In this document: in pieces, positions 13,514 to 37,360 of the stretch
Numbering within the stretch: the stretch's first letter is position 1
How the letters are laid out: the number at the start of each line of letters is the position of its first letter
DNA from: an uncultured bacterium
Lineage (GTDB): Bacteria; Abyssobacteria; SURF-5
Assembly: GCA_964607485.1 (NCBI GenBank)
Contig: CAZSKP010000004.1
Coordinates: 96,001 to 160,000, forward strand
DNA length: 64,000 nucleotides
Direction: 5' to 3'
Notes under the pieces: generated by a model
Databases searched by the model: none
Seen by the model: only the letters and a program-made list of their open reading frames with translations
Told to the model about the DNA's origin: nothing
Made by a program: the position numbers and the translations under genes

Positions 13514-15049
13514 ATGCTCGCGAAGGTCTTCAGCAGTTCCGTGTTCGGGGTGGACGCCTACCAGGTCGAGGTCGAGGTGGACCTGGGCGGCGGGCTGCCT
13601 TCGTACACAGTCGTCGGCCTGCCCGACACGGCCGTCAGGGAAAGCAGGGAACGCGTCGCCGCCGCTATCAAGAACTCCGGCTACGTGCTGCCCAGCAAGC
13701 GCATCACCGTGAACCTCGCCCCCGCCGACGTGAAGAAGGAGGGCTCATCGTTCGACGTGCCCATCGCCATCGGCATCCTCGCCGCCTCCGAGCAGGTCAA
13801 GAGCGAGAAATTCCTCGACTATTACATTGCAGGGGAATTATCGCTCGACGGAACCATCCGCGGCATTCCCGGCGTGCTGACGATGGCGCTTCAGGCGTCG
13901 AAGATGAACAGGCGCGGCATCGTCGTTCCCACCGACAACTCGGCCGAGGCGGCGGTCGTCGAGAAGGTGGAGGTCATACCCGCGAAGACGCTGCGAGCGC
14001 TCGTCGATTTCCTCGAAGATTTCACGCCGATCGAGCCTCACCGGATAGACCTCGAAGCCGCCTTCAGGCAAAGCTCCCGATATGCGATTGACCTTCAGGA
14101 GGTGAAGGGACAGGCGCACGTGAAGCGGTCGCTCGAGGTCGCCGCCGCGGGAGGGCACAACGTGCTCATGATCGGCCCGCCCGGCTCGGGCAAGACGATG
14201 CTGGCCAAACGCCTCGCGACCATCCTGCCCGATATGACCCTCGAAGAGTCATATGAGACCACGAAGATTCACAGCATCAGCGGGTTCCTTCCTCCGGGGA
14301 AGCCGCTCATCGCGACGCGGCCGTTCCGCTCGCCGCACCACACGATTTCCGACGTCGCGCTCGTCGGCGGAGGCAACTACCCGAGACCGGGCGAGGTCAG
14401 TCTCGCGCACAACGGCGTCCTGTTCCTCGACGAACTGCCCGAGTTCAACCGGAAGGCGCTTGCGGCGATGAGACAGCCGCTCGAAGACGGCTGCGTCACC
14501 ATCTCGCGCGCCGCATATTCGCTCACCTTTCCCGCCAGCTTCATGCTCACCGCCGCGATGAATCCGTGTCCGTGCGGTAACCTGGGCGACCCCAGGCGCG
14601 AGTGCACGTGCCAGCCGTGGCAGGTGCAGCGGTATCTCGGCAGAATATCCGGCCCGCTGCTCGATCGGATCGACATGCACATGGAAGTACCCGCCGTCAA
14701 GTATGCCGACCTTTCATCCACCGAGCCGTCGGGCGAGCCCTCCGCCGCAATTCGCACGCGCGTGCAGAAGGCGAGGAACCTCCAGCGCGAGCGCTTTGGC
14801 GACGATTCGCTCCGATGCAACTCGCAGATGGGCTCGAAGCATGTGAAGAAATATTGTGTTACCACCGCCGACGCGAAGGAGCTTTTGAAGGCGGCCATCC
14901 TCAACCTCGGCATCTCCGCCCGTGCCTACGACCGCATCCTCAAAGTCGCTCGCACCATCGCCGACCTCTCCGAGAGCGATGTCATCCGCGCCGAACACAT
15001 TTCCGAGGCCATCCAGTACCGCAGCTTCGATAGAGGCCTCTGGAGGTAG
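13514..15049 (+). CDS. comM: YifB/ComM Mg-chelatase-like AAA+ ATPase
   Basis: '[15 protein letters not shown]', '[18 protein letters not shown]', 'GPPGSGKT', 'RPFRSPHH', '[15 protein letters not shown]', 'NPCPCG', '[18 protein letters not shown]'. Confidence 0.96.
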
Positions 15050-15182
15050 GATGGAATTGCGCTTGAAGCCGGGGTACTTATGGGCCTGTAGCGAATGAGA
15101 GACAGCTATGACCAATGTGGCTTTCGGACTACCATAAAATGCGGATAGCGTCATCGGGGAAAATCAGCAGGATGCCAAAATA

Positions 15183-16271
15183 GTGAGTGACAAAGACCGC
15201 GTTGACTATCCGTATCAGGTTTCGCTCCACCTTACCGAGGCCTGCAATCTGCGCTGCAAGATGTGCTACTTCTGGGGGGAGACCGGCCGCTATGTCAATA
15301 CCGGCGACAGAGAGAAGCCCAAATCTCTCGACATCGACAGGCTGAAGCGGTTGGTACGAGAGCTCGCCCGAGCGCGCCCGAACTACGAACTGTTTGGCGG
15401 CGAGCCTTTATCGTATTCGCACCTGGAAGAGATCATTCGCGCGATCAAAGAGGCCGGTTCGCCTGTCGAAGCTCCCACGAATGGCACTCTGCTGGAAAAG
15501 TATTCATCGCTGCTGGTGGAAACAGGCTTTGATTCTATTCGCGTGTCGCTCGATGGCCCGCGGGAGATAAACGACGCACAACGTGGCAAGGGCAGCTATG
15601 ACAAAGCGATGGCGGGCATCGAGGCCGTCTTCAAAGAAAAGATAAGGGTAGGCTCAGCTTCTCCCATTTTGAGTGTCACTTATACCGTCACACCGGAAAA
15701 CTACCTCTTCATCGAGCAGTTCTTCCTCCATGAGCTGAACCTGGAGGCAATGGATTGGGTGACGATCCAGAGTCAGAATTTCATCACGGAGGCAATGGGA
15801 CTGGCCTACGCGAAGCTGCTTGAATCGGAATTCGGGATAACGAGTGATTCCTTCTGGCGTGGCTTGGTGAGGTCGCGGGAAGATCTTGCTGAAATGGATA
15901 CCGTCGAACTCTCGCGACAGGTAGGAGAAGTTCAAGAACGTTTCGCGGAGCTTGGCAAGAATGTCCTGCTTCTGCCCCGCACATTTACACCCGAAAACCT
16001 ATCCGCATATTTCCGCATGGACTGGGGTAAGATGAGCGATAGATACTCAAGTTGCCCAGTTCCGTGGAGTTCGCTCGACGTCACTGCAAACGGCGATGTC
16101 GCCGCCTGTCACATCTTTTACGACCTCGTGATGGGCAATATCTACGAGCAGAGTTTTGAAGAGATCTGGAATGGCGAACCCTATAGGAAATTGCGAGCCC
16201 ATATGGAGCGCAAGGGTCTCATGTCGATATGTCCCGGCTGTTGCATCCTCTATCTGGTTGGTAGCACATAA
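15183..16271 (+). CDS. Radical SAM/SPASM domain protein
   Basis: CNLRCKMC motif, 'GGEPL', C-terminal 'CPVPW...GDVAAC...GNI...EEIWN...CPGCC'. Confidence 0.9.
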   Translation: MSDKDRVDYPYQVSLHLTEACNLRCKMCYFWGETGRYVNTGDREKPKSLDIDRLKRLVRELARARPNYELFGGEPLSYSHLEEIIRAIKEAGSPVEAPTNGTLLEKYSSLLVETGFDSIRVSLDGPREINDAQRGKGSYDKAMAGIEAVFKEKIRVGSASPILSVTYTVTPENYLFIEQFFLHELNLEAMDWVTIQSQNFITEAMGLAYAKLLESEFGITSDSFWRGLVRSREDLAEMDTVELSRQVGEVQERFAELGKNVLLLPRTFTPENLSAYFRMDWGKMSDRYSSCPVPWSSLDVTANGDVAACHIFYDLVMGNIYEQSFEEIWNGEPYRKLRAHMERKGLMSICPGCCILYLVGST

Positions 16272-16435
16272 TGATCCCGCCTCTCCAAGGCAGCTGCGCG
16301 CCGCGATGGAACCGCCATGACGCCGAATTTGCATTTGATCTCAAAGCCCGCTATGATAATTCCGAATTTGCGCATGACGCGTGAATCGAAATCGTCGCGC
16401 CTTTGCTCCGGGTGGAGCAAGCAGGGAGGTTCGTT

Positions 16436-17491
16436 ATGACTGAGGATGTTTACAAGAGACTACGTGAATTCTTGGACAAGCTGCCGGGGGGATATCCCGA
16501 GACCGACAGCGGGGTCGAAATCAGAATCCTGAAGAAGTTGTTCTCGCCCGAGGACGCCGAACTGACGATGAAACTTAAGCCTGAACCCGAGGGGGTTTCT
16601 TCTATAGCGGAGCGTCTCGGTATCGATGAAGCGAACGCGGCCGAGAAGCTCGAGGATATGGCGAAGCGCGGCCTCATCTTCCGGACGAGGGAAGACGGCA
16701 AGCCGAAGTACCAGGCGTTTCAGTATATCGTCGGCATCTACGAATTCCAACTGCCTCGCATAGACCGCGAATTTGCGGAGTTGATGGAGGAGTATTTCCC
16801 CTATCTGGGAATGTCATTCGCGCCGCTCAAGACCAAACAGCTTCGAATTGCGCCAGTGAATTCCTCGGTCGATGCCCTGCCGACGGTGGCGCCGTATAAC
16901 AAGATTCGCGAATTGGTCAAGCAGCAGAAGCTTATCTTGAATAATCCCTGCATTTGCCGGAAGGAACAGGAATTGCTCGGCAACAAGTGCGACCGGCCGC
17001 GGGACCTGTGCTTTTCGTTTGGCAAGTTTGCGCAATACGGTTTGGACAACGGTACGGGGACGCAGATCACGCCGGAAGAGGCGTTGAAGCTTCTCGACAA
17101 GGCCGAAGAAGCAGCGCTGGTGATGTCGCCCAGCAATACGCAGGAGCTTGAATTCATATGCTGCTGTTGCGGCTGCTGCTGCGGTAGTCTCAAACGCATT
17201 AAGCTGCTCGAAAATCCTGCCGATTTCGTCCAGTCGTATTACCGGGCCGTGATCGACCCGGACGAGTGCACCGCGTGCGGAACGTGCGTTGACCGATGTC
17301 AAGTCGCTGCAATCGAGGAAAAGGATGACGTGATGGAGGTCAATCCGGCTCGCTGCATCGGCTGTGGGCTGTGCGTGTCGGAGTGTCCGGTCGAAGCCAT
17401 CACGCTCGAGGAAAAGGAGGGCGAGGAAGCTCCGCCTGCGGATATAGACGAGGTCCTCCACAGACTCGCAAGCGAAAGGGGACTGAGCTAA
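16436..17491 (+). CDS. Polyferredoxin / 4Fe-4S binding protein with N-terminal HTH-like region
   Basis: 'CICR', 'ICCCCGCCC', two CxxCxxCxxxC motifs; GGAGG RBS. Confidence 0.88.
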   Translation: MTEDVYKRLREFLDKLPGGYPETDSGVEIRILKKLFSPEDAELTMKLKPEPEGVSSIAERLGIDEANAAEKLEDMAKRGLIFRTREDGKPKYQAFQYIVGIYEFQLPRIDREFAELMEEYFPYLGMSFAPLKTKQLRIAPVNSSVDALPTVAPYNKIRELVKQQKLILNNPCICRKEQELLGNKCDRPRDLCFSFGKFAQYGLDNGTGTQITPEEALKLLDKAEEAALVMSPSNTQELEFICCCCGCCCGSLKRIKLLENPADFVQSYYRAVIDPDECTACGTCVDRCQVAAIEEKDDVMEVNPARCIGCGLCVSECPVEAITLEEKEGEEAPPADIDEVLHRLASERGLS

Positions 17492-17524
17492 CGAGATATT
17501 GTTTTTCGGCTTAACAGACTATAT

Positions 17525-17554
17525 GGGGGCGCATCCGGTTGCGCTCCCTTTTTT
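17525..17554 (+). terminator. Rho-independent terminator
   Basis: gggggcgca/tgcgctccc hairpin followed by a T run. Confidence 0.65.
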
Positions 17555-17672
17555 GTTGTCGGCGCGCCGCCTCGATTCTTTCGACCCTGAAAGGAGTCCT
17601 ATCGCCCCAACGGTCAGGGTTCGGTCAGGTGCACGCTTTGAAGGCAGTTCGCTTGGGATGGCTGTGTAGTTG

Positions 17673-18752: not shown

Positions 18753-18881
18753 CTCAGGGTGTCCTCCAATGTATTCTCATTCGAGCCGGATAGACCCGGA
18801 TCGTTCAGGCTCTAAAGGCCGTCCTCGGCCGACGGCCTTTGCGCGGTCCGGCCTCCATCGGTGGATTGCCGGACTATCAGC

Positions 18882-19922
18882 CTACGGTTTCCTGCCGGTG
18901 ATTCTGGTCAGAGAACCGGGAATAAATGAATGGACCTGAACATCGATAAATCCGGCATTCTCCAGATATCCAACCACTTCTCCCTCGGAATGAGCTCGTC
19001 CCTCGCTTCCGAATAGAGCCTCGTGAATGCCCCAGAGGGCCGGACCCAGCGGCCCGCATTTTTCATCGTTCAAGGTTTCCCCGACGACATGGTATTCTCC
19101 ACCCGGCTGCAGCGCCTCGTAAGCCTTTGTGAGAATCTTCAGGAGAACGCCTTCGCTGTATTGCGGCAGGTTGCTCGCCATAATCATCACATCGGCGCCG
19201 CGCGGAAGTGGGTCTCTGGTGAAGTCTGCCGGATAGACTGAGATTTTGTCTTGCATTTCCCATTGAGCTATGAACTCTTGCGCTACCTTGCACACGGGTT
19301 CGAAATCCAATACGGTCGCCTTGAGATGGGGATACTTCTGGATTGCCGCTATGCAATACGCGCCGGAACCGCCGCCGAGGTCGAGTATCATTGATCGTCC
19401 GCTCAGGTCCACATCCCTGGCAAACAGCATGCCTGCGCCCAAACCGACGGCGTACGTGGCCTCATGATACTCTCTGGCAATCTCTTCCGTCATGCTTTCG
19501 TAAAGCCCGAGCACCTTGGGAGGGGTGTCCGATTTGAGGTGGTCGGCCAGGTTCTTCCACTGCTCGAAATCCATTCCGGCAAAAAGCAGCCACGGCCCGA
19601 TGTAGGTAAGCTTTCCTCGTACCAGAAATCGCTCCACATCGGGCGCGTTCCGGTATTGGTCTCCTTCCTTTTCCAGGAGCCCGAGAGCCGCGCAGGCAAC
19701 GACAAGCCTTTCCGCATTGAGGTCACTCAAACCAACAGCGCCTGCGACTTGAGAAACATTTATGGCGCCCTCAGATACCCTGGTAAACAAATCCAATTGT
19801 ATCGCTGCTCTCAGAGTTGCACTCTGTTTGTGTCCGTAACTCAGGTTCTGCAAGCGCACGGTGTCTGTCTTTCTCTTACGAGTTGTCACGGATGCCTCCA
19901 AAACATTCTTGCGCCCTGTCAC
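18882..19922 (-). CDS. SAM-dependent O-methyltransferase with dimerisation domain
   Basis: 'LRAAIQLDLF' dimerisation helix, 'LDLGGGSG' SAM motif, 'ALQPGG'. Confidence 0.9.
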   Translation of the reverse strand: MTGRKNVLEASVTTRKRKTDTVRLQNLSYGHKQSATLRAAIQLDLFTRVSEGAINVSQVAGAVGLSDLNAERLVVACAALGLLEKEGDQYRNAPDVERFLVRGKLTYIGPWLLFAGMDFEQWKNLADHLKSDTPPKVLGLYESMTEEIAREYHEATYAVGLGAGMLFARDVDLSGRSMILDLGGGSGAYCIAAIQKYPHLKATVLDFEPVCKVAQEFIAQWEMQDKISVYPADFTRDPLPRGADVMIMASNLPQYSEGVLLKILTKAYEALQPGGEYHVVGETLNDEKCGPLGPALWGIHEALFGSEGRAHSEGEVVGYLENAGFIDVQVHSFIPGSLTRITGRKP

Positions 19923-20749
19923 GTCTGGGGTGGTGTGCCGCCTTCTTCTTGAAGCATTTGTTCTATGCTTTTTATGAAGCCCGAAAAATCAAAGGACGTG
20001 TCCCATGTGTAGGGGAGGTCCACAATTTCACCCGGATTCGAGGCCGATGCGAGCACGTTCAGCGCATCCTTCAGAACCTGGGTCTGAAGCTCGACATCAT
20101 GCGGTTTGCCGCATTGATGGCCGAGCGGGAAATTGAGGAATGCGCTGCGAGGAGGTTTGACCCGGGCCATCATGTATCTGCACGAGCCGAGGTAAATTGT
20201 GGAGAGTCCGGCTTCTTCGATCTTGCGTGCTATCAGTCCGACCGACTGATGGTCCAGCGGTCAGGCCGGGACAAGCAGGACAAAATCTGCGCCCTCCCGT
20301 TTCAGAAGAGCCAGTATTTCGGGCACAGTCTCATTCTGTAGCGCTGTGCGTTTATAGAGCCGACCCATCCCGAGCGTGACCGCAATCGGCGCCAACTTTC
20401 CTATGTACCGTTCAGCCTCGAGTTCCTTCAGCCGCTCGACGGGAAACACGCAGTTTAGGTCATTTGCGGCGTCTCTGTGGTCGAAGTAGTTGTGATGAAG
20501 CCTGAGCCTTTCGTATGGGGTGTCGATTGGAATCTGACGGAAGCTCAAGTCATTCACAGCCCAAGGGTTGAACGGCTCTTGGTCGTCTCTGGAAATGCCG
20601 GCTGAACTGACCAGCGCCAGGCAACCTTCTTTCAGCGGTTTGCTCAGCGAAGACCACGGACTCGTGTCAAATTCGGACCATTTATAGGGCGGGAATCCTT
20701 GACTCTGATACATCTCGTTGAGGGCCGATACATAATCTATGGGCTTCAT
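19919..20749 (-). CDS. Selenoprotein of the glycine/proline reductase B (GrdB/PrdB) family, UGA at 20261-20263
   Basis: Two ORFs in one frame joined across TGA: 'DFVLLVPA-U-PLDHQSVGLIARKIEEAGLST...PPR...FPLGH'; family motifs 'LVSSAG', 'DLNCVFPVERL'; hairpin directly after the UGA. Confidence 0.85.
20232..20250 (-). promoter_or_regulatory. Putative bacterial SECIS
   Basis: ATCAGTC-GGTCG-GACTGAT hairpin starting about 11 nt after the UGA, with G first in the loop. Confidence 0.75.
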
Positions 20750-20796
20750 TTATTGCACCTCCTTGCCGTGTAATGAGAAATGCCCGCAAGAGACCA

Positions 20797-21921: not shown

Positions 21922-21938
21922 TTTCCTCTTTCCCTTCC

Positions 21939-23105: not shown

Positions 23106-23153
23106 TATCTGGTTCCTCCCATCGATTTAACTTTACCCGTGTTACGGGCCGGA

Positions 23154-23558: not shown

Positions 23559-23814
23559 GTTTCGCTCCTCTCCGTGGACGGCCTGAACGAATAACCGAAA
23601 CTATACTACTCGGTGGCCTCGGCTTTTTCAAGACAATCTCAATGGAAGCGAACGCGTGGGAGAGCTTTCTCCGAAGAGGCGGCATTGTTCACCCGCAGAA
23701 TTGTCACGAAGCATCCTTGGCCGTGCAGAATTGGAGAACGATCCGTGACTCATCTGGAGCGGTATGTGAGCGATCGGATGAGTGATGGTTGCGCTCTGGA
23801 GGTGGGGAAAATTG

Positions 23815-26073: not shown

Positions 26074-26157
26074 CTGATATTTTCGTCGATTTACTCGCCA
26101 GAATCAGGCTATCATCTCGCAACCATGATACTCGCCCGCCGCTCTAATTTCAAGCAA

Positions 26158-26205
26158 TCCGAGGCCATCCTATACCGCGGCTTCGACCGGGGGCTGTGGA
26201 GGTGA
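26158..26205 (+). repeat. Direct copy 1 of the comM 3' end
   Basis: Encodes SEAILYRGFDRGLWR* versus com[16 protein letters not shown] (13/15 aa; 38/48 nt identical to 15002-15049). Confidence 0.92.
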
Positions 26206-26325
26206 GAAACCAACGAGAAGTCGGGGACTTGATTCTGCCGACTGCTTAGAGTAGAGTCATCTGTAAGAATCATGACGACGTGACTCCTTGACCACGTCAG
26301 AGCTACCTCGGAAAGGGAACAGAAA

Positions 26326-27036
26326 ATGGCAAAGGCTGACAACCCAAGGGAGTATCCGCCCGGATCTTTCGATTCTTTTCGAATCAGGGACGAGAAAAAT
26401 TTTCTGGCCGGAACTCGCGAGCATCCGGAAGAATTGGCAAGCGCCGGCAGAATTTTTCTTGAATTTATTTACGGCCTCCAAGCTCTTGGGACTCTCGGGC
26501 CGTGCGTGACCGTGTTCGGCTCGGCGCGGTTTCCCGAGGAACATCGCTATTACAAACTGGCGCGCGAACTCGGCAGGAGGCTGGCGGAAGAGGGATTCAC
26601 CGTCATGACCGGCGGCGGGCCCGGCATCATGGAGGCCGCAAACCGCGGCGCCAGGGACGCCGGCGGGCTGAGCATCGGATGCAACATAGAGCTTCCCAGC
26701 GAGCAAGAACTGAATCCATACGTTGACCGATTTGTCGAGTTTGAGCATTTCTTCGTGCGGAAGGTCATGCTGGTGAAATATTCCCAAGCATTCGTCGTCA
26801 TGCCCGGCGGATTCGGCACGCTCGACGAGGTGTTCGAAACGCTGACGCTCATCCAGACGAACAAGATCGAGTCGTTCCCCGTCATCGCCATGGGAGGAGA
26901 GTTCTGGGGGGCGCTGACAGGATTTATTCGCGACACGATGGTCGTAGAAGGAACGATAAGCGCTTCGGACCTCAGCCTGATTCACCTCACCGATTCGGTT
27001 GGCGAAGCGATGGAGGTCATCCGACAGGGGATGTAA
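26326..27036 (+). CDS. LOG family protein (TIGR00730-type)
   Basis: 'VFGSARF', 'TGGGPGIMEAANRGA', 'PGGFGTLDE'. Confidence 0.93.
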   Translation: MAKADNPREYPPGSFDSFRIRDEKNFLAGTREHPEELASAGRIFLEFIYGLQALGTLGPCVTVFGSARFPEEHRYYKLARELGRRLAEEGFTVMTGGGPGIMEAANRGARDAGGLSIGCNIELPSEQELNPYVDRFVEFEHFFVRKVMLVKYSQAFVVMPGGFGTLDEVFETLTLIQTNKIESFPVIAMGGEFWGALTGFIRDTMVVEGTISASDLSLIHLTDSVGEAMEVIRQGM

Positions 27037-27110
27037 TCGCATCCGGCGACATGCTGCACAAAGCCCTCGAAAAGCGTGCAAAAATGGGGCTTTTCCTCTC
27101 TCTCTCCTGA

Positions 27111-27869
27111 ATGGTTTCCGACTTGCAATCGGGGCCACCGATTTGGTATTATGGATATTGGGCCGAATTCAAGGCGTACACCCCGGATGAGAATCTCTGT
27201 GGCTTGGCAAAAGGAGCAAGTTCTATGGGTCCGAATCAAGAAGCCACGGCACATCGCGCCTCTCAGAACCCCCGCATTCTTCTTGTGGAGAACGACGCGA
27301 ATGCCGGCAAGGGGCTTCAGACGGTTCTGAGAGAGGAAGGCTATGCCGTTGAGCTGGCGACGACGGGATCAAGCGCACTCGAGTCGTTCAGGGGAAATGG
27401 TTTTGATCTTGTTGTGGCCGACCTTCGGTTGCCGGACATTGACGGCATGGATGTGCTCAAGCAGATCAGTAATGAACGTCCCGAAACGAAAATGCTGGTC
27501 ATCACCGAACATCCGTCGATCTCTTCGGCGGTGGCGGCGGTGAAAATCGGCGTGATCGATTATCTCCGAAAACCTTTCACGGACGATGAGTTCAAGGCGG
27601 CCGTTGCCTCTGCTCTTAAGTCCAGCCAAGGGGCTTCAATGGAGAATCTCCTCGTCGAGACCCATCAGGGGCGTCTGAGAAAGTTGTCGAATTCTGGAAC
27701 GAGCTGATGGATAGAGGCTCGGAGGCCCTTGAGGGGTATCGGCTTTCCCGCCAGGCCAAGGCCGCGATGCTATCGGGCGATTTTAGAATGGATTCGAAAA
27801 GATGTCGGAGATTTGTCGGAAGAACGGCTCGGCTGCATTAATAAGCCGCTTGAGCGGGAGGCTTGGTAG
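27111..27869 (+). pseudogene. Response regulator (REC plus C-terminal helical domain), frameshifted
   Basis: REC motifs 'RILLVEND', 'DLRLPDIDG', 'DYLRKPF'; the C-terminal domain continues through two frameshifts ('EFWNELMDRGSEALEGYRLS...SGD/LEWIRKDVGDL...EREAW*'). Confidence 0.75.
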
Positions 27870-27931
27870 GTTCTTGTCGATGTTGACAACGGATGCTTGA
27901 CTCAATCTCAGTGGTTGGGAGGATTGGACTT

Positions 27932-28462
27932 ATGGATATTGGCGCACTTGAATCTCCGGTTTCGGAGGATATTGCTGAAATTGAAAAAACCAATTCGGCC
28001 ATGCGGAAAGAATTCGAAGGGAAGCCCGAGGAACTCATCCCCATCCTCCAAATGGTTCAGAGATCGCTGGGGTATCTTCCTGAGGAATCGCTCCTCGAGA
28101 TAGCGCGGTTCATTCGTGTGCCGGAGGCCCGCGTATTTGCTGTCGCAACCTTTTACGCCCAATTTCGATTCACGCCGATAGGGAGACATCATGTGTTGGT
28201 CTGCAGGGGCACTGCGTGTCACGTCAGGGGGGCCCCTCGAATATTGGATGAAATAAAGAAGGACCTGCGCATAGAGGAAGGAGAGACCACGCCCGACAGG
28301 GAGTTTTCACTCGAGACCGTGGCCTGCATCGGCGCGTGTGGTGTGGCTCCGAATATGGTGATAAACGAACGAACCTACGGCCGACTTACGAAGAAAAGGA
28401 TCAAAGAGATATTTGCGGAGATTAGGTCCGAAAACGATGGGAAGGAAAATGAAAAACAATAA
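27932..28462 (+). CDS. NADH dehydrogenase NuoE/HoxE-like 2Fe-2S subunit
   Basis: 'LIPILQ...GYLP', 'VATFY', 'CRGTACHVRG', 'ACIGACG'. Confidence 0.93.
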   Translation: MDIGALESPVSEDIAEIEKTNSAMRKEFEGKPEELIPILQMVQRSLGYLPEESLLEIARFIRVPEARVFAVATFYAQFRFTPIGRHHVLVCRGTACHVRGAPRILDEIKKDLRIEEGETTPDREFSLETVACIGACGVAPNMVINERTYGRLTKKRIKEIFAEIRSENDGKENEKQ

Positions 28463-31400
28463 AAGGACAATCTTCATTTGTCAGGGTACGGGTTGTGTGT
28501 CGGCAGGGTCGCCCGACATAGCCGCTGCAATTGAAGACGAGGCTCGAAAGCTGGCCCTCACGGATGTTGAAGTAAAACTCACCGGATGCCACGGCTTCTG
28601 CCAACGAGGGCCGATAGTCATCGTCGAGCCCGAAGGAATCTTCTATTCCGCCGTAGAGGCTAAAGACGCAACCGAGATCGTTCATTCCCACCTGAAGAAC
28701 AATAAGCCCTTAGAACGCCTGTTTTACAGACATCCCGTCACAGACGAGCCCATTCCCCACTATCGCGACATTCCGTTCTATAGTGAACAGCAACGAGTGG
28801 TCGTTCTCCGCAACTGCGGCCATATTTGCCCCGAAGTCATCGACGATTATCTGGCTGTCGGCGGTTATGACGGCCTGAAAAAAGCGCTGACCGAGATGAC
28901 CCCCGAGCAGGTCATAGAAGAGGTCAAGAAATCCGGGCTTCGCGGCAGGGGAGGTGCGGGCTTCCCGACGGGAAGGAAATGGGAGCTCTGTCATAATGCT
29001 CCAGGTTCCAAGAAATACATGGTATGCAACGCCGACGAAGGGGATCCGGGAGCATTCATGGACCGCAGCGTGCTCGAAGCTGATCCACACAGCGTCCTCG
29101 AGGGTCTCGTAATCGCCGGATATGCCATAGGGGCCGACGAGGGTTATATCTACGTGCGCACTGAGTACCCGTTGGCAGTGCATCGAATCCGCACGGCCAT
29201 ACGGCAGGCTGAAGAGAAAGGCTTCCTGGGGCGAAACATCTTTGGCTCGAAATTTCACTTTCGTGTGAATGTTATGGAGGGCGCGGGAGCCTTCGTCTGC
29301 GGCGAGGAAACGGCCCTCTTGGCTTCCATAGAGGGGAAGAGCGGAAGACCTCGACCTCGGCCTCCCTTTCCAGCCCAATCCGGTCTTTGGGGCAAACCTA
29401 CAACAATAAATAACGTGAAATCCCTTGCCAGCATCCCGGTGATTATCTCAAAAGGCCCGGATTGGTATGCCGCCATCGGGACCGAAAAATGCAAAGGGAC
29501 CGCCGTATTCGCCCTTACCGGCAATATCGCAAATTGTGGTCTTGTGGAAGTGCCGATGGGGACCTCGCTTCGTAAGATTATTTATGACATCGGCGGTGGA
29601 ATTCCCGGCGGCAGGGCATTTAAAGCCGTCCAGACCGGAGGCCCTTCAGGAGGCTGTCTGCCGTCGAGCTTCCTGGATCATCCCGTTGACTACGAGTCCC
29701 TTGCCAGCGCGGGCTCAATCATGGGTTCCGGCGGCATGGTCGTTATGGACGAGAACACATGTATCGTGGATATCGCTCGATACTTCGTTGACTTCACGCA
29801 AAGGGAATCCTGCGGCAAATGCATGCCGTGCCGCCTTGGCACAAAACAGATGTTGGAAATCCTTGAGGACATAACACGAGGCAAGGGAAGGCCCGGAGAT
29901 ATCGACCTGCTCGTTGACATAGGCGAAGCGGTCAAATCGGGTTCGCTTTGCGGTTTGGGGCAGACTGCCCCGAATCCGGTGCTCAGCACGATTCGGTATT
30001 TCAGGGAAGAATACGAAGCCCATGTTAAGTACAAGAGATGTTCGGCAGCCGCGTGCAAGGAGATAATATCTTCCCCTTGCCAACATGCCTGTCCGATAAG
30101 CACGCAGGCAGCGACCTATATTTCCATGATTGCTGAAAGCCGCTTCGACGAGGCGATGGACATAATTTGGATGGACAATCCACTCCCGTCGGTCTGCGGC
30201 AGGGTATGTCATCATCCATGCGAGTTGAAATGCCAAGCGGGCAAATGGGGCGACCCCATCTCGATCAGGGCGCTCAAGAGATTTGTTACCGATTATGCAA
30301 TCAGCAATGGAACCTACTCCGTCGAAGAAAGAACACCGACGAAAACCGAAAAGGTGGCGATTGTCGGTGCCGGGCCGGCAGGTTTGGCGGCGGGTCACTC
30401 CCTCGCCCAGAAGGGATATAATGTTACTGTGTTCGAAGCCCTCCCGGTCGCCGGTGGCGCCGCAGCCGTGTACATACCGGAATACAGATTGCCGAAAGAC
30501 ATCCTCAATCTTGACATCGAGAATATCAAGAAGACAGGCGTGGAAATAAGAACAAATACCAGAGTGGGAAAAGATATATCCTTCGACCAGCTTCGGGATG
30601 ATTATAATGCAGTGTTTATCGCTGCGGGAGCACACGAGTCACGAAAGTTGGGCGTTCCAAACGAAGACGCCGATGGCGTATTGGATGCCATGGAATTCCT
30701 GAAAGCCGTGAATCTCAAGAAGGGCGTCAAAGTAGGAAAACGGGTCGGCGTCATTGGTGGAGGCAACGCCGCGGTTGATGCCGCCAGGGTGGCGATGCGG
30801 CTCGAAGGGTGTGAGAAGGTTCACCTGATCTACAGGAGAACGCGGAACGAGATGCCCGCGTTCAAGGAGGAGGTGGACGCGGCGATTGACGAGGGCATTG
30901 ACATCGTCTATCTCGCCGCTCCCTCCAAGATCGTGACACAGCAAGGGCGAATCACAGGAATCGAATGCATAAGGATGGAGCTGGGACCGCGTGACGAAAG
31001 CGGCAGGAGAAGACCTGTTCCTATCAAGGGATCGGAATTCGTCGTCGAGCTGGACACACTCCTCGTTGCGATCGGTGAAGTGCCCGATGTCTCATTTCTT
31101 GGTGAGATGTGCGGCGTCGAAGTGTCAAAGAGAAACACGATCGCGGTAAATCGCGAAACACTCGCGACTAATGTAGAAGGGGTCTTCGCGGGAGGCGACA
31201 TCGTGACCGGTCCGAATACGCTCATAGAGGCTGTCGCAGCCGGCAAGAGGGCGGCGGAATCCATCGACAGATACATTCGTGGCGAGAGCCTGGTGGGGGA
31301 ATACAACGTCACACGACCTTCAACGTACTTGCCTCCGGTCGAACTGACGGAGGAAGAGATTGCAGAGGCTGAAAGAGCGGCCACTCCGCATCTCTCTATC

Positions 31401-31550
31401 GAACGCAGACAAAGGAGTTTTGATGAGGTCGAACTCACACTCTCCGAAAAGGCGGCAATAAAAGAGGCAAGGCGCTGCCTCAGGTGCGATTTGGAGACTG
31501 AAGACGCCAAGGAATGGCTTGAACAAGCTGCGTCGATGAAGGGTGCTTAA
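28449..31550 (+). CDS. NuoF/HydB-like NADH-binding subunit fused to a GltD-like FAD oxidoreductase
   Basis: 'SGLRGRGGAGFPTG', 'CNADEGDPGAFMDR', 'GAFVCGEETAL', 'CGKCMPCR', then 'PCQHACP', 'GAGPAG', 'GGGNAAVD', 'EARRCLRC'. Confidence 0.92.
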   Translation: MKNNKRTIFICQGTGCVSAGSPDIAAAIEDEARKLALTDVEVKLTGCHGFCQRGPIVIVEPEGIFYSAVEAKDATEIVHSHLKNNKPLERLFYRHPVTDEPIPHYRDIPFYSEQQRVVVLRNCGHICPEVIDDYLAVGGYDGLKKALTEMTPEQVIEEVKKSGLRGRGGAGFPTGRKWELCHNAPGSKKYMVCNADEGDPGAFMDRSVLEADPHSVLEGLVIAGYAIGADEGYIYVRTEYPLAVHRIRTAIRQAEEKGFLGRNIFGSKFHFRVNVMEGAGAFVCGEETALLASIEGKSGRPRPRPPFPAQSGLWGKPTTINNVKSLASIPVIISKGPDWYAAIGTEKCKGTAVFALTGNIANCGLVEVPMGTSLRKIIYDIGGGIPGGRAFKAVQTGGPSGGCLPSSFLDHPVDYESLASAGSIMGSGGMVVMDENTCIVDIARYFVDFTQRESCGKCMPCRLGTKQMLEILEDITRGKGRPGDIDLLVDIGEAVKSGSLCGLGQTAPNPVLSTIRYFREEYEAHVKYKRCSAAACKEIISSPCQHACPISTQAATYISMIAESRFDEAMDIIWMDNPLPSVCGRVCHHPCELKCQAGKWGDPISIRALKRFVTDYAISNGTYSVEERTPTKTEKVAIVGAGPAGLAAGHSLAQKGYNVTVFEALPVAGGAAAVYIPEYRLPKDILNLDIENIKKTGVEIRTNTRVGKDISFDQLRDDYNAVFIAAGAHESRKLGVPNEDADGVLDAMEFLKAVNLKKGVKVGKRVGVIGGGNAAVDAARVAMRLEGCEKVHLIYRRTRNEMPAFKEEVDAAIDEGIDIVYLAAPSKIVTQQGRITGIECIRMELGPRDESGRRRPVPIKGSEFVVELDTLLVAIGEVPDVSFLGEMCGVEVSKRNTIAVNRETLATNVEGVFAGGDIVTGPNTLIEAVAAGKRAAESIDRYIRGESLVGEYNVTRPSTYLPPVELTEEEIAEAERAATPHLSIERRQRSFDEVELTLSEKAAIKEARRCLRCDLETEDAKEWLEQAASMKGA

Positions 31551-31665
31551 ATGAGGAAAACCTCCTGTCATTTTTGGATGATCTGGAGATAATTAAGGCC
31601 GCCATTTCTGGGGCCGGTATTTCGTTCAATGCTGCGCATCTTCCATGACTTAAGGAGAAAGAAGC

Positions 31666-34614
31666 GTGAAAAAGGTTACGCTCACAATTGACGGACGCAA
31701 AATTGCAGTGCCTGCGGGGTCCACCGTGCTGGATGCGATCCGGGCGGCGGGTCTCTATGTGCCCACCCTTTGCCACGATTCTGAACTGAAACCATACGGA
31801 GCATGCCGTTTGTGCATCGTTCAGATAGAAGGCTTGCGAGGGCTGCCTACATCTTGCACCACCCCTGCCACAGAAGGCATGGTCGTGCACACGGAAAGCG
31901 AGCAGATTCGCAACGTTCGCAGAACCGTTGTGGAATTGGCAATCGCGAATCATCCGTACGATTGTCTCCTCTGCAGCCAGAACCAGGAATGCGAGCTCCT
32001 GAGCGTGGCCCGATACGTTGGTGTCGAGAAGGGGGCGCTGGAGCGGATGCGGAGAGGCGCGCTGGACAGGGCCATCGACACATCCAACCCCGCCTTCGAT
32101 TTCGACCCGAACAAGTGCATCCTCTGCGGAAGATGTGTGAGGATATGCCAAGAACTCACCGGAGTGGGCGCAATAGACTTCGCCTATCGCGGGAACAAGA
32201 CCGTCGTCACCACGTTTGGCGCAAGACCGTTGGCGTTGTCCCGATGTCAGAACTGCGGCGAATGCATGGAGCATTGTCCAACGGGAGCCCTGTCGCCGAA
32301 GCTCGCGGTCGCTCCTCAGCGTGAGGTCGAGACCACCTGCCCATACTGCGGCGTCGGCTGCTCCATGTATCTCGGGGTGCGCGGGCGCGAAATCGTTCGC
32401 GTCAGAGGGGCGAAGGAAAACAGCGTAAACCCGGAAGGTCTCTGCGTGAAAGGGCGGTTCGGACTCGATTTTGTCAATCATCCCGACCGCTTGACCCGGC
32501 CTCTGATTCGGAAAGAAGGTGCGCCCAAGGGTGATGGGCAAGTCGATCCGATGGAAGCGTTTCGCGAGGCCAGTTGGGATGAGGCGCTGGACCTCGTGGC
32601 CGAAAAACTTGGCCGCATCCGTGACGAGCACGGTCCTGACGCCATCGGGGTGATCAGTTCCGCCAAGTGCACGAACGAAGAGAACTACGTCATTCAGAAA
32701 TTCGCCAGGGCCGTCATCGGAACGAATAACGTCGACCACTGCGCCAGGTTGTGCCACGCCTCCACCGTGACGGCCGCGCTCGCGTCGTTCGGCTCCGGCG
32801 CCATGAGCAACTCGATTTCGGATATCGACCATGCCGACATGTTGTTTGTCATCGGGTCGAACACGACGGAATGCCATCCCATCATCGGAAGGCGTATCAA
32901 ACGGGCCGTCCGTTTTAACGGGGCCAAATTGTTAGTTGCCGACCCGCGCATCACCGAACTGGGCGAGATGGCCGACGTGCGCATGAACCATTTTCCCGGT
33001 ACCGATGTCGCTCTGATGAACGGCATGATGCGTCAGATCGTCGATGAGGGAATGCACGACAAGAAGTTCATCGATGAGCGGTGCGAGGATTTCGAGCCGT
33101 TCCTCGAATCGTTGCAGCAGTATCCCGTCGATTATGTGAAAGATATTACCGGCGTTCCGGCCGAAAAGATACGCAAAGCCGCGCGTTTGTTCGGCAAGGC
33201 AAAGAGAGCCATCGTCTTCTACGGCATGGGCATCACGCAGCACACCACGGGAACCGACAACGTAAAGGCCGTCGCCAATCTGCTCATGTTGACCGGAAAC
33301 ATGGGTCGCAGGGGCACGGGCTTCTCGCCGTTGCGCGGTCAGAACAACGTGCAGGGGGCCTGCGACCTGGGGGCGCTCCCGAATGTCTTTTCCGGCTATC
33401 AGGTCGTCACCAGCCCGGAGGTGAGGGCCAAGTTCGAAAAAGCCTGGGGAACGAGCTTGTCGGATCGACCCGGCCTCACCCTCACGGAGATGTTCGGCGC
33501 GACACATGAGGGCCGGCTCAAGGCAATGTACATCATGGGCGAGAATCCCACCATGAGCGAGCCCGACGCGAATCATGCCCGGGCCGCCCTCGCGGAACTC
33601 GATTTCCTTGTCGTTCAGGACCTCTTCCTGACGGGGACGGCCGAATACGCCGACGTGGTGTTGCCTGCGACAAGCTTTGCCGAAAAGGACGGAACCTTCA
33701 CCAACACGGAGCGAAGGGTGCAGATGGTTCGCAAGGCCATCGACCCGCCCGGCGAGGCGCGCGTGGACTGGGAGATCACCGCCGACATCTCAAGGAGGAT
33801 GGGATATCCCATGGAGTACGCCTCCAGCGCCGAGATAATGGATGAGATCGCCGAGTTGACTCCCATCTATGGAGGTATCCATCACGATCGACTGCAGAAG
33901 GGCGGATTGCAGTGGCCGTGCCTGAATCGCAAACACAAAGGCACGCTGTTCCTTCACAAAGGCCGATTCTCCCGAGGGCGTGGAAAATTTCACGTGCTGC
34001 ACGATAAACCGCCGGCCGAACTGCCGTCGCGCCTTTATCCGCTCGTTCTCACGACCGGCAGGATTCTTGAGCATTGGCACACGGGCAGCATGAGCCACAG
34101 GTCGCACGTCCTCGAGACGTTGCAGCCCGAGAGCAGCGTCGAACTGAGCCCGACAGACGCCGAGCGACTCGGCATCGAAGAGGGCGACATGGTTTCGGTG
34201 CGCTCGCGGCGCGGCCAGGTTCACACGAAGGCCAAGAAAACTCCTCGCGTGCGACCCGGCCAGGCCTTCATGGCCTTCCACTGGCTCGATGCTCCGGCGA
34301 ATCTTCTGACGAACCCGGCTCTGGACCCTGTGGCCAAAATCCCCGAGTACAAGGTATCCTCCGTGCGGGCCATTCTTGACGTGCTCGAACGCGCGGCCGA
34401 GGACAACGCGTTCATCGCCGCCCTTGCCGAGAACCCCGCCGGCGCACTGAGCTCCTACGACCTCACGCCTGAACACCGCGAGGCCCTGCTCAACGCGGAT
34501 TTCAATGCGCTCGAAGAGTGGATAGGCCCGCTCGACGACCGTCTCAAGATTTGGCTGAAGCACCGGCTCAAGCAGGAGAAACTGTCGGAGGCATCTGAGA
34601 CACCCCGCAAGTGA
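31666..34614 (+). CDS. fdhA: Formate dehydrogenase alpha subunit (Mo/W-bisPGD, Cys-type) with N-terminal FeS domains and a C-terminal extension
   Basis: 'TTCPYCGVGC', 'LCVKGRFG', 'DHCARLCH', 'PLRGQNNVQG', 'FTNTERRVQ', 'AKIPEYK'. Confidence 0.93.
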   Translation: MKKVTLTIDGRKIAVPAGSTVLDAIRAAGLYVPTLCHDSELKPYGACRLCIVQIEGLRGLPTSCTTPATEGMVVHTESEQIRNVRRTVVELAIANHPYDCLLCSQNQECELLSVARYVGVEKGALERMRRGALDRAIDTSNPAFDFDPNKCILCGRCVRICQELTGVGAIDFAYRGNKTVVTTFGARPLALSRCQNCGECMEHCPTGALSPKLAVAPQREVETTCPYCGVGCSMYLGVRGREIVRVRGAKENSVNPEGLCVKGRFGLDFVNHPDRLTRPLIRKEGAPKGDGQVDPMEAFREASWDEALDLVAEKLGRIRDEHGPDAIGVISSAKCTNEENYVIQKFARAVIGTNNVDHCARLCHASTVTAALASFGSGAMSNSISDIDHADMLFVIGSNTTECHPIIGRRIKRAVRFNGAKLLVADPRITELGEMADVRMNHFPGTDVALMNGMMRQIVDEGMHDKKFIDERCEDFEPFLESLQQYPVDYVKDITGVPAEKIRKAARLFGKAKRAIVFYGMGITQHTTGTDNVKAVANLLMLTGNMGRRGTGFSPLRGQNNVQGACDLGALPNVFSGYQVVTSPEVRAKFEKAWGTSLSDRPGLTLTEMFGATHEGRLKAMYIMGENPTMSEPDANHARAALAELDFLVVQDLFLTGTAEYADVVLPATSFAEKDGTFTNTERRVQMVRKAIDPPGEARVDWEITADISRRMGYPMEYASSAEIMDEIAELTPIYGGIHHDRLQKGGLQWPCLNRKHKGTLFLHKGRFSRGRGKFHVLHDKPPAELPSRLYPLVLTTGRILEHWHTGSMSHRSHVLETLQPESSVELSPTDAERLGIEEGDMVSVRSRRGQVHTKAKKTPRVRPGQAFMAFHWLDAPANLLTNPALDPVAKIPEYKVSSVRAILDVLERAAEDNAFIAALAENPAGALSSYDLTPEHREALLNADFNALEEWIGPLDDRLKIWLKHRLKQEKLSEASETPRK

Positions 34615-34651
34615 CGGGCTGAGCAGACTCCTCTCTTGACTTCTTTTGGTC

Positions 34652-34682
34652 AACGGGCATGACGACCGTCGTCATGCCCGTT
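34652..34682. repeat. Perfect inverted repeat (terminator-like or REP-like)
   Basis: aacgggcatgacga-ccg-tcgtcatgcccgtt. Confidence 0.7.
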
Positions 34683-34759
34683 TTCTCATTCCATCTCCTC
34701 TCCCCATCGCCGCCATTGCAGAGCGACCGGCACTCAACGGCGTGTTGCCCAAAACGTCC

Positions 34760-35020
34760 TGTCATTCCCGCGGAGCCTGTCCTCGACCCTGATCGGGGAG
34801 CGGGAAACCAGCGTTGTCTCAGGAGCACTCGACAACAGGCCACTAAGAATGGCACACCCCGCCCCTTAAGGCACGAAGGGACACCCTTGGGAAAGGTTAG
34901 AAATAGCCAACTACTATTCGGAGCAGCAAATAGTTGTCATTCTGAGCGCAGCGAAGAATCTCGAAGAATACAGTAGCTTTGGGCTAAACATGAGATCCTT
35001 CACTTCGTTCAGGATGACAA
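34760..35020. repeat. Cluster of REP-like palindromic elements
   Basis: 'tgtcattcccgcg...gcgggaaacca' and 'tgtcattctgagcgcagcgaagaatct...agatccttcacttcgttcaggatgaca'. Confidence 0.7.
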
Positions 35021-35273
35021 GCATGTGACGTATTTCATGCACCTTGTAGTAATTCAGGAAATTAACAACGCTGGCGAACTCTGCCATCTTCTTCATCTTC
35101 AACATTCCTGCAAAAAATGCTATAATGCCGGGAAAACAGAAGGGACTGTGAAACTCCATGTGCGTATAGAGAAAGACATGGAAGGGGCTTCCCATTATTC
35201 AACCCGTTGAGCTTTAACGAATCATAGAAGGAAGCGTCTTAATAAATGTCAAACTGGCAGGGAGGAATTGGCA

Positions 35274-35522
35274 ATGGCAGTTTTGTTCATAGTAATAATT
35301 GGTACCTCTATTTTCTGTTTTTATCAAGGATATATTGGCACGGGCATAATCTGCCTCATCGGTTTTTCCAAAACGATCGGCTTTTTGGCACTCATATACA
35401 CTTCAATCTATCTATTTTTCAAGGGCCACTATGTGATGGGATTTGCACCAATCGGGTTGATCGCATGGAATATTATTGGGATGTATTGGACCGAGAGGGA
35501 TCGACATCGAGCAGAAGAGTGA
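35274..35522 (+). CDS. Small AT-rich membrane protein
   Basis: GGAGG RBS; almost entirely hydrophobic. Confidence 0.6.
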   Translation: MAVLFIVIIGTSIFCFYQGYIGTGIICLIGFSKTIGFLALIYTSIYLFFKGHYVMGFAPIGLIAWNIIGMYWTERDRHRAEE

Positions 35523-35539
35523 CCCAGCAAAGAGAGAAT

Positions 35540-35647
35540 AGGGTCTCCCGCACAATCGCCGACCTCGCCGAGTCCGAAACTGTTCGTGCCAGGCGAATCT
35601 CCGGGGAGACTTAGTACCGGAGGTCTGATAAGGGGCGTTGGAGGTGA
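35540..35647 (+). repeat. Direct copy 2 of the comM 3' end (decayed)
   Basis: RVSRTIADLAESETVRARRISGET*YRRSDKGRWR* aligns without gaps to com[36 protein letters not shown] (19/35 aa). Confidence 0.9.
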
Positions 35648-35790
35648 GGAGAAGAGGCGTCGTCTTGGCCTGAATAGAAGTTTTGTGTACAGAATAGTAG
35701 GAAGGTTCAAGAGAGGAAAGAAAGGAATAAATGGTTCAATAAGAAGCCCGAAGCTCTCGAATTAGGAACGAATCAATGGAGGCGGTTTAA

Positions 35791-36552
35791 ATGGAGACGC
35801 CAAATCCGGCCAAGCGAATGAAGATATACTCCAGAATCAAAGGGAAATGGAGAGAACTTGTTGCGGCCGTTGCTGTCATATTATTTATCATCACTTCTGT
35901 TCTTACAGACAACAAGTCTGGTGTTGTGGTTAGCTTCTTGATCTTGATTTCAATCCTCTATCTCGACCGAATCAAAGGAATTATAATCGAGATGAGGATA
36001 AGAAGAATATTTGGTATTGAACTGGCTGAAGAAGTCTTCAAGGAGGAACTGCGCCGTGAGGCACTCAAGAGGAAACCAGATCTCGACGAGGAAGATGTTG
36101 ATATGATTGCCGACTTGGCGCTCAACCGTATTGAGGGTCCCTACCGTAAAGCAAAGTTGTTTGAAGATATCGTCCAACTTGCACTGAACGATCTGAATCT
36201 GACATTTCAAAGAGGGGTAACCTATCCTTCTCTTGCCAGCCACCCTCAGATTGATTTTTTAGTTGAGTTAGGTCAAGAACGCCTTGTTGGCATAGCAGTC
36301 GCATACAGTGATCTGATGTATCTTACTGACGACCATCTTTTTCGAGCAATTAAGATGTCAAACGCATTATCTGAGCACTTCAATCTTGCTGGCTTCTTGC
36401 TGATAACAAATGCCGCAGTTGGAGAAAGAGACAAGACAACTTTGAACGAGCAAGAGCCAAGAATTGATGTCATCGAGAGTGTAATATCTCCTGATGGCGT
36501 CACGTCAAGATTGTCGTCCTATTTCCAACAAATTGCCGAAAGAATAAACTGA
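35791..36552 (+). CDS. Hypothetical membrane-anchored protein, possible degenerate PD-(D/E)xK fold
   Basis: GGAGG RBS, two N-terminal TM helices, 'LFEDIV...QIDFLVE...GIAVAY'; low GC. Confidence 0.65.
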   Translation: METPNPAKRMKIYSRIKGKWRELVAAVAVILFIITSVLTDNKSGVVVSFLILISILYLDRIKGIIIEMRIRRIFGIELAEEVFKEELRREALKRKPDLDEEDVDMIADLALNRIEGPYRKAKLFEDIVQLALNDLNLTFQRGVTYPSLASHPQIDFLVELGQERLVGIAVAYSDLMYLTDDHLFRAIKMSNALSEHFNLAGFLLITNAAVGERDKTTLNEQEPRIDVIESVISPDGVTSRLSSYFQQIAERIN

Positions 36553-36585
36553 TAGCAAATCATTCACCCCGCGGACGGTGTCACT

Positions 36586-37173
36586 ATGCGGATAGAGACG
36601 CTAAAAGACTACATTCTCTTCTGGTTGAATTCCGCAAGGACCCTAGGCAAAGTGAGAAGAACATCCGAGCTTTTGACTTGGGTCTTCGGTTTGTGTGTCG
36701 CAATTATAGCTTTTCTTGGCTCAAATTTCGTGACGGCGGTGTTGGGGATTTGCGCAACAATCTCAGCTTTGCTTACGATTGTGGCTAACAAGCAGCTGGA
36801 CAATCTAAATGCTCCCCGTACCATAGATACCAACCGGAAACAACTGATACTCGATGCACTCGCCAACATAGCACCGTGTCGAGTAATAATATCGGCTGCG
36901 ATCGGCGATTGTGAGGCCATCAATCTTGCAGAGGAACTGGCGAAGGTCTTCAAAGATACAGGATGGCAGGTGGAAGGGCCCGACTATTCTCCTCTGTCGT
37001 CTGATGACCAAGGCATTATACTTCGCGCACATGACCAACATTCGGCTCACAAAGAAGTCTCGGCTCTAAAGGAGGCCTTGGCTACTTGCGGCTTCGAAGT
37101 AAGAATGGAGTTCGATGAGCGCATACCGAACAAAGCAATTGACCTGCTGATAGGCTATAAAGGCTTTCGATGA
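36586..37173 (+). CDS. Hypothetical membrane protein
   Basis: 195-aa ORF with two N-terminal TM segments; low GC. Confidence 0.65.
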   Translation: MRIETLKDYILFWLNSARTLGKVRRTSELLTWVFGLCVAIIAFLGSNFVTAVLGICATISALLTIVANKQLDNLNAPRTIDTNRKQLILDALANIAPCRVIISAAIGDCEAINLAEELAKVFKDTGWQVEGPDYSPLSSDDQGIILRAHDQHSAHKEVSALKEALATCGFEVRMEFDERIPNKAIDLLIGYKGFR

Positions 37174-37191
37174 AAGCTAACCTCGTTAGAA

Positions 37192-37360
37192 ATGATGACG
37201 GCTTACGAGGCCAAAGCGTTGCTCAAGTTGGCCATCTTTAAGCTCGGTTTCTCGGACCGCGCATATGAGTGTGTCCTCAGAATTGACCACACCACTGCAG
37301 ACTTTTCCGAATACATCTTCAGGGGCGATTCAGTTTCGGAGTTTTCATGGGAAATTGTGA
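37192..37360 (+). repeat. Direct copy 3 of the comM 3' end (most decayed)
   Basis: EAKALLKLAIFKLGFSDRAYECVLRIDHTTADFS matches com[35 protein letters not shown]; after a deletion and frameshift, AIQFRSFHGKL* matches [11 protein letters not shown]. Confidence 0.88.

What the first reader, a model, noticed from the sequence alone, without database searches (positions are those of the whole stretch)
13514..37360. comM followed by three direct copies of its own 3' end: a serial gene-capture array with no integrase
Seen: intact comM ends at 15049. Same-strand copies of its last 16, 36 and about 60 codons recur at 26158-26205, 35540-35647 and 37192-37360, each ending at the comM stop region and each followed by unrelated genes. 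No recombinase or transposase is encoded between them. Known: comM is a target of Tn7-like islands such as AbaR, which disrupt it and carry their own transposition genes; ComM itself acts in recombination during natural transformation. Inference: DNA repeatedly enters via the comM tail, supplies a new tail, and pushes the old tail and its neighbours downstream. This builds an integron-like chronological array, possibly by homology-anchored recombination in which comM is both catalyst and landing pad.
Basis: partly seen in the sequence, partly recalled or inferred. Interest (0 to 1): 0.92.

Follow-up and report, generated by a model that had tools for sequence, protein, structure and literature searches.

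The report
Stacked insertion scars behind comM
Three blocks of genes were inserted one after another directly behind the DNA-uptake gene comM, each leaving an old copy of the gene's end behind and none carrying an insertion enzyme; this is a stacked form of a known recombination footprint, and comM collects it unusually often.

Summary
Confirmed. Three decaying copies of comM's end (48, 105, about 170 nt) follow intact comM on its strand, well above chance, with no recombinase or transposase between them. Stacks of two or more tails recur in 7 other genomes or contigs, in the class and in other phyla. The footprint is not comM-only: 14 genes of this genome have their 3' end copied downstream, 0 upstream, and one such insert has an empty site in 6 of 6 relative loci. 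comM is the hot spot (only gene of 3,252 with three; 7 of 111 versus 8 of 717 elsewhere). Best reading: serial 'insertion with long target duplication' by host recombination with DNA from kin, probably favoured because comM-targeting elements keep breaking the gene; relics of such breaks lie in this genome. Rival: decayed comM-specific elements that supply a new gene end. 'ComM as its own catalyst' has no support. The scan already noted this footprint on other DNA, at comM and at other genes. New variant of a known kind.

The parts
13514..15049 (+). Intact comM/yifB (511 aa), the landing site
   Evidence: TIGR00368 653 bits against a cut-off of 362; GC3 0.84, 97th percentile of the genome
15050..26157 (.). 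Block 1 (11,156 bp stop to stop): two radical SAM genes, 4Fe-4S protein, nitronate monooxygenase, O-methyltransferase, PrdB-like protein, two acyl-CoA dehydrogenases, PAS protein, HGD-D subunit; no recombinase. It may hold more than one event.
   Evidence: Pfam and NCBIfam; GC3 0.61-0.71; size
26158..26205 (+). Tail 1: last 15 codons plus stop of comM
   Evidence: 82% nt; 6 changes at 9 synonymous sites, 2 at 36 non-synonymous sites
26206..35542 (+). Block 2 (9,442 bp): LOG/SLOG protein, response regulator, NuoE-, NuoF- and molybdopterin-oxidoreductase-like genes, a dispersed palindromic repeat near 34.9-35.1 kb, an 82-aa membrane ORF (35274-35522)
35543..35647 (+). Tail 2: about 34 codons plus stop, with a premature TAG
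   Evidence: 66% nt; PF13335 hit
35648..37191 (+). Block 3 (1,716 bp, 45.5% GC): two ORFs of unknown function (253 aa, 195 aa)
   Evidence: no Pfam family at E 0.001; GC3 0.44 and 0.51
37192..37363 (+). Tail 3: aa about 449-511 with a deletion of about 20 nt and a frameshift
   Evidence: 108 of 162 aligned bases identical; PF13335 hit
37439..38704 (+). Thiolase gene; host-like codon use resumes here
   Evidence: GC3 0.86; genes beyond are mostly 0.71-0.85

Best explanation
[quoted passage not shown] DNA from a relative pairs through comM; the donor's comM end and the genes beside it go in; the far end is joined back to the resident comM some tens to hundreds of bases before its stop, so the old end is stranded behind the new block. 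Repetition stacks blocks, newest first; tails then shrink and decay, and can recombine with each other. Shown: anatomy, polarity, recurrence, no recombinase, allelic nature of several tails. Inferred: the recombination route, the donor, uptake by transformation. Why comM is hot (inferred, less sure): it is often split by site-specific elements, and one-sided repair with an intact allele both restores it and strands the old half.
For: Polarity across the genome: of 3,264 genes (count), 14 have a same-strand orphan copy of their 3' end downstream and 0 upstream; 5 have a 5' end copy upstream and 1 downstream. The 14 include murJ, an L-aspartate-oxidase-like gene, an enoyl-CoA hydratase, nfeD and an HGD-D gene. 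At the HGD-D pair a 2.4-kb MMPL gene and a 106-nt, 90% copy split two genes that are adjacent in 6 of 6 relative loci. Tail lengths form a continuum, 27-278 nt plus one of 868 (28 tails after dropping 2 misaligned rows of 30), not one fixed site. Young tails differ mostly at synonymous sites (G005: 27 of 33 synonymous against 1 of 105 non-synonymous; L036: 19 of 43 against 4 of 143), so they were working alleles. Tails carry their own lineage's ending, so donors are kin. comEC and dprA are present. Intermediate: in G100 intact comM is followed by a PIN gene, a truncated serine-recombinase-like ORF (motifs by eye; Resolvase E 0.064 only), AT-rich genes and an 868-nt tail starting at Walker A that differs only in its last 33 nt. 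L150 has the mirror image: an old 5' piece ending at aa 220 upstream of intact comM.
Against: No empty comM site and no donor were found: the nearest relatives are other genera. Some of the 14 genes are probably missed paralogs (not checked one by one). Mismatches do not favour either half of the tails (14 against 11), so linear-donor and circle routes cannot be told apart. Orthologs of the genes after tails 1 and 3 are not beside comM in relatives. In one phylum sample, second matches were 6 of 239 for the comM end and 5 of 249 for the infB end; the infB ones were not recovered as C-terminal pieces, so that control is unresolved. G139 shows the reverse age order. Long tails at fixed sites beside element remnants fit the rival equally well. 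Homology-facilitated illegitimate recombination is reported as rare (PMC5361080, passage).
Confidence: 0.6

Rival explanations
1. comM-specific integrative elements (large serine or tyrosine recombinase) insert at fixed sites, bring a replacement 3' part of comM as e14 does for icd, stack in tandem, then lose the recombinase while the displaced ends shrink by deletion.
For: Orphan 3' halves start at fixed sites: aa 215-222 (G100, L183, L195, L104, L105) and aa 346-358 (G031, G032, G047, L137, L168, L192, L198). L195 has a full large serine recombinase beside the aa 215 junction; HTH genes flank the aa 346 junction in L098 and L107. Long tails shrink by internal deletion (C4:90081-90304 of this genome joins aa 386 to aa 473 at a short repeat). 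This genome has two copies of one junction at Walker A on C3, and G006's comM is cut at aa 252 by a defence-gene region. This gene class is the target of 12.4% of predicted site-specific serine integrases (PMC10083194, passage).
Against: The three window tails start at aa 449, 477 and 497 with no element remnant. No complete recombinase was seen in any block between an intact comM and a tail (ORF lists; only part were scanned against Pfam). No PF07508 recombinase in this genome (97.5% complete). It does not explain the same footprint at other genes. The cargo is metabolic, and the LOG gene has 73-84% identical orthologs in 6 of 9 family genomes.
Confidence: 0.27
2. The tails are debris of local duplication and rearrangement inside one chromosome; the blocks are resident genes moved next to comM.
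For: In G139 and G005 some tails share flanks, so stacks do duplicate internally. LOG and thiolase are family genes. Tails 2 and 3 are too decayed to type.
Against: Synonymous excess in tail 1 and in young tails elsewhere; 17 of 18 block genes are below the genome's median GC3; the three window tails share no flanks; strict polarity.
Confidence: 0.08
3. ComM acts in cis, or with sequence preference, to capture DNA at its own gene.
For: comM is the only gene of 3,252 with three tails; ComM drives branch migration through heterologous DNA (10.1101/147660, passages).
Against: The passages read describe a general helicase, with no mention of a preference for its own gene; the same footprint lies at other genes; element attack offers a simpler reason for the hot spot.
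Confidence: 0.03
4. Chance matches or an assembly artefact.
Against: Scores above all 112 controls; tails are 61-82% like comM, not collapsed copies; contigs span the comM stop and tail 1; recurrence in other genomes.
Confidence: 0.02

Closest known systems
Insertion with long target duplication (Nobusato et al. 2000, seen only as a citation; Furuta, Abe, Kobayashi 2010, PMC2853133: abstract, outline and passages read)
   Same: Insert under 20 kb between direct repeats longer than 30 bp and of variable length, no other mobile element; most cases in naturally competent species.
   Different: Described for restriction-modification genes, with nearly identical repeats (44-49 of 46-49 bp in its Table 2); no stacking in the passages read. 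Here the cargo is metabolic, the repeats are diverged gene ends, and three are stacked at one gene.
Displacement arrays of T6SS effector-immunity, Rhs and CDI loci (Kirchberger et al. 2017, PMC5361080, passages)
   Same: Newest module first, older parts pushed back, no integrase, homology-facilitated illegitimate recombination proposed, likened to integrons.
   Different: There the array is the functional toxin-immunity locus and the 3' region is the variable part; here the anchor is a conserved housekeeping end that is rebuilt unchanged, and the cargo is unrelated.
e14 at icd with the icdC fragment (PMC13626634, passages)
   Same: Gene stays whole, a C-terminal pseudogene lies at the far end of the insert.
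   Different: A prophage with a defined site; no phage genes or fixed boundary here.
comM-targeting elements: Tn6022/AbaR and Tsy (PMC10293859), large serine recombinases (PMC10083194), diverse elements in Acinetobacter (PMC11472951); passages only
   Same: Same target gene; relics of such junctions exist in this genome and in relatives.
   Different: They split comM near Walker B or other internal sites and carry their own enzymes; here comM is whole and the blocks have none.

Membership tests
Insertion with long target duplication (criteria of PMC2853133) | Direct repeat longer than 30 bp, variable in length | tested here: met
   48, 105 and about 170 nt
Insertion with long target duplication (criteria of PMC2853133) | Insert under 20 kb with no other mobile element | tested here: met
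[quoted passage not shown]
   Six relatives have other genes after comM but none joins comM to these flanks; an empty site is shown only for the HGD-D locus
Insertion with long target duplication (criteria of PMC2853133) | Insert carries restriction and modification genes (the paper's own filter) | tested here: not met
   Metabolic and unknown genes only; so it works like this class but is not one of its RM cases
Integron | Integron integrase beside the insertion site (feature recalled) | tested here: not met
   8 PF00589 matches in the genome, none on contig C4
Integron | attC sites between cassettes (feature recalled) | not tested
   No attC model was run; the repeat search showed only the tails as a long shared family
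Tn7-like Tn6022/AbaR or Tsy | tns genes, or YRec, HTH and TnsF, inside the insert | tested here: not met
Tn7-like Tn6022/AbaR or Tsy | comM split near Walker B | tested here: not met
   comM is whole; tails start at aa 449-497
Large-serine-recombinase element in comM | Recombinase gene and a fixed internal junction | tested here: not met
   No PF07508 in the genome; met in L195 and, as a remnant, perhaps in G100
Homology-facilitated illegitimate recombination | One homologous anchor and a microhomology join at the far end, in a competent cell | not testable with these tools
   Needs the donor sequence; comEC, dprA and comM are present

The most novel reading that the evidence does not exclude
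Once a block has a comM tail behind it, block plus tail is a portable cassette: comM and the tail act as two homology arms (or pop out as a circle), so cassettes move between kin and stack at comM without any dedicated enzyme. The arms race with comM-splitting elements seeds the tails, which makes host repair of a competence gene a standing gene-capture platform in several phyla.
Probability: 0.2. Interest if true: 0.75.

Novelty: new variant of a known kind. Interest (0 to 1): 0.45.

Why it matters
Many integration hot spots have no integrase (PMC2617782, passages), and how DNA first enters them is open. Stranded gene ends give a dated, countable record of such entries. comM is usually discussed as the gene that mobile elements knock out; these stacks suggest the other side of that conflict, repair with gain of new genes, and make it testable in a competent lab strain. 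The footprint itself is in print and the scan has met it often, which limits the surprise.

Tried and rejected
Phage and plasmid collections gave only whole-tail matches, and none was opened (17 and 47 records). The viral contig L106 begins with a 130-nt comM tail, but its record is a fragment without PF00589: no conclusion. The tyrosine integrase fragment beside the C3 comM pieces abuts a tRNA-Pro gene, so I do not count it as comM-specific. Odd codon use in comM's last 12 codons: seen in 5 of 5 family relatives against this genome's codon table but not in this genome, and not in 15 comM genes of other phyla (p 0.43): not used. GC just downstream of comM is not lowered across 52 loci (p 0.29), while GC just upstream is. 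5' against 3' mismatch split: uninformative. infB control: unresolved. No joint between the comM end and tail 1 among the joints shown (14 not shown; contigs cannot show absence). Runs X3 and X4 had small shares and were not used. My GC3 for 35246-35530 was in the wrong frame and was redone. My early note that every relative has a different gene after comM was too strong: G004 and G006 share a four-helix-bundle gene there. Ten text searches listed no paper on stacked comM tails; the library lacks most subscription journals, a paper on integrative-element targets that I recalled is not held, and no supplements were read.

Full report
Observation. The window lies on contig C4 of a 4.7-Mb, 93-contig genome. 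comM is whole (13514-15049). Three + strand copies of its end follow at 26158-26205, 35543-35647 and 37192-37363. They score 43.5, 41.6 and 31.6 bits; the best of 112 control windows scores 24.6. Identity falls with distance: 87%, 54% and 46% in protein. Tail 2 has a premature stop and tail 3 a deletion of about 20 nt. The blocks measure 11,156, 9,442 and 1,716 bp stop to stop. They hold metabolic genes and three ORFs of unknown function; no recombinase or transposase was found. 17 of the 18 block genes are below the genome's median GC3 of 0.74, while comM (0.84) and the thiolase after tail 3 (0.86) are host-like. The genes upstream of comM are also low, so comM sits inside a variable zone of roughly 60 kb. 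Contigs of run X1 span the comM stop and tail 1 unchanged; X1 may be the source of the window.

Other comM pieces in this genome. A 5' piece with promoter (204 nt, 93%) lies 32 kb upstream on the same strand. An inverted tail lies 19 kb upstream; it starts near aa 350 and skips from aa 386 to aa 473 at a short repeat. On C3 there is a collapsed 5' piece ending at Walker A and two pieces starting at Walker A behind the same foreign junction sequence. A piece on C27 ends at aa 250. These read as relics of elements that once split comM (inference).

Relatives. Of 9 family genomes, 5 match the comM end; G005 has three tails and G010 (same class) five, two on the comM contig and three on a second contig whose adjacency is not shown. 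None of 19 distant genomes with a match had more than one. The gene after comM is a radical SAM gene here, DUF5677 in G005, a four-helix-bundle gene in G004 and G006, a repeat arm of that kind in G007, a PD-(D/E)XK gene in G009 and an unknown AT-richer gene in G010. G006's comM stops at aa 252 before a defence-gene region that runs to the contig end; G001 gave only a fragment and G002 (77% complete), G003 and G008 no comM match with these queries.

Other phyla. Tails behind comM occur in loci titled Ignavibacteriae and Verrucomicrobiae and in 6 of 80 metagenome loci. In a sample of G032's phylum, 6 of 239 other genomes with a match had more than one; G100 and G139 are stacks, G047, G116 and G151 have tails on other contigs, G208 was not resolved. 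In the fetched loci, 7 of 111 comM genes and 8 of 717 other long ORFs had an orphan tail within 8 kb (Fisher p 0.0017); the loci were picked by likeness to the comM end and are not independent, and the 8 were not vetted. An infB control gave second matches in 5 of 249 genomes that I could not resolve. So enrichment at comM is supported in two tests and unproven in a third.

What the tails are. Young tails differ from the intact end mainly at synonymous sites, so they were working alleles rather than fresh local copies, and each carries its own lineage's ending. Lengths run from 27 to 278 nt with one of 868 (2 of 30 rows dropped as misaligned). The nearest tail is more like the intact gene than the farthest in 7 of 8 stacks; G139 is the exception. 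In G139 and G005 some tails share flanks, so not every tail is a separate capture.

The footprint is general. In this genome 14 genes have an orphan 3' end copy downstream and none upstream; 5 have a 5' copy upstream and 1 downstream. At an HGD-D pair the insert and a 106-nt copy separate genes that are adjacent in 6 of 6 relative loci. comM alone has three (19 of 3,252 genes have any).

Why comM. Separate from the short tails, long 3' halves start at fixed sites, aa 215-222 and aa 346-358, sometimes beside a large serine recombinase or an HTH gene. comM is a well-known target of mobile elements (PMC10293859, PMC10083194, PMC11472951, PMC12378983; passages). G100 shows whole comM, a cut recombinase-like gene, AT-rich cargo and a nearly identical half from Walker A; L150 shows a stranded 5' half ending at aa 220. 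Both fit repair of a split comM by an intact allele anchored on one side, and both also fit an element that had picked up part of comM. PMC11472951 found recent recombination at comM in 35 of 386 Acinetobacter genomes, no more than chance, which tempers the repair idea.

Verdict. Real, recurrent and without a dedicated enzyme in sight. Most likely (0.6) serial host-made insertions with target duplication; next (0.27) decayed comM-specific elements that supply a new end. It works like the displacement arrays of T6SS loci (PMC5361080, passages) and is not an integron, a Tn7-like island or a Tsy element by the features tested. ComM acting on its own gene has no support. Ten text searches listed no paper on stacked comM tails, but the scan has notes on the same thing at comM and at hrpB, rtcB, recG and other genes in other genomes; those notes are leads, not support. 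New variant of a known kind; interest 0.45.

Noticed in passing
G000:C4:77735-77938 and C4:90081-90304 (L020, L021): A comM 5' piece with promoter 32 kb upstream, and an inverted comM tail with an internal deletion 19 kb upstream.
   Followed up: partly
G000:C3:162754-163104 and C3:187730-187811 (L022, L023): Collapsed comM pieces on both sides of a small insert of about 210 bp at Walker A, next to a tyrosine integrase fragment and tRNA-Pro; the same junction sequence recurs 24.7 kb away.
   Followed up: partly
G000:C15:22816-27658, C8:91372-95737, C11:79619-82617, C18:45714-49359, C3:5800-7244: Single inserts behind duplicated gene tails at an HGD-D gene, murJ, an L-aspartate-oxidase-like gene, nfeD and an enoyl-CoA hydratase.
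   Followed up: partly
window 34.9-35.1 kb: A palindromic repeat with many copies in intergenic DNA (65 intergenic loci hit by the ORF that overlaps it); REP-like by recall.
   Followed up: no
L011:12301-12790, L017:483-1000, L019:1-90, L140:592-1420: Four-helix-bundle (PF05635) genes flanked by inverted arms of 7-base tandem repeats sit right behind comM ends in several genomes.
   Followed up: partly
L121:2200-8001 and L221: G006's comM stops at aa 252 before at least 15 kb of AT-richer genes including GmrSD-like, RtcR/CARF and type I restriction genes.
   Followed up: partly
L118:9891-9981: A comM tail of G139 lies on another contig between two partial IS110 transposase ORFs.
   Followed up: no
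L103:935-1014: Smallest case: comM end, 48 bases, then the last 10 codons again with 9 changes, all synonymous.
   Followed up: no
L106:1-130: A viral contig fragment begins with the last 130 nt of comM, followed by phage-like genes.
   Followed up: partly
window 19922-20749: PrdB-like ORF (20261-20749, minus strand) matches only aa 19-144 of a 238-position model and is followed by an 85-aa ORF; a split or selenocysteine-read gene is possible.
   Followed up: no
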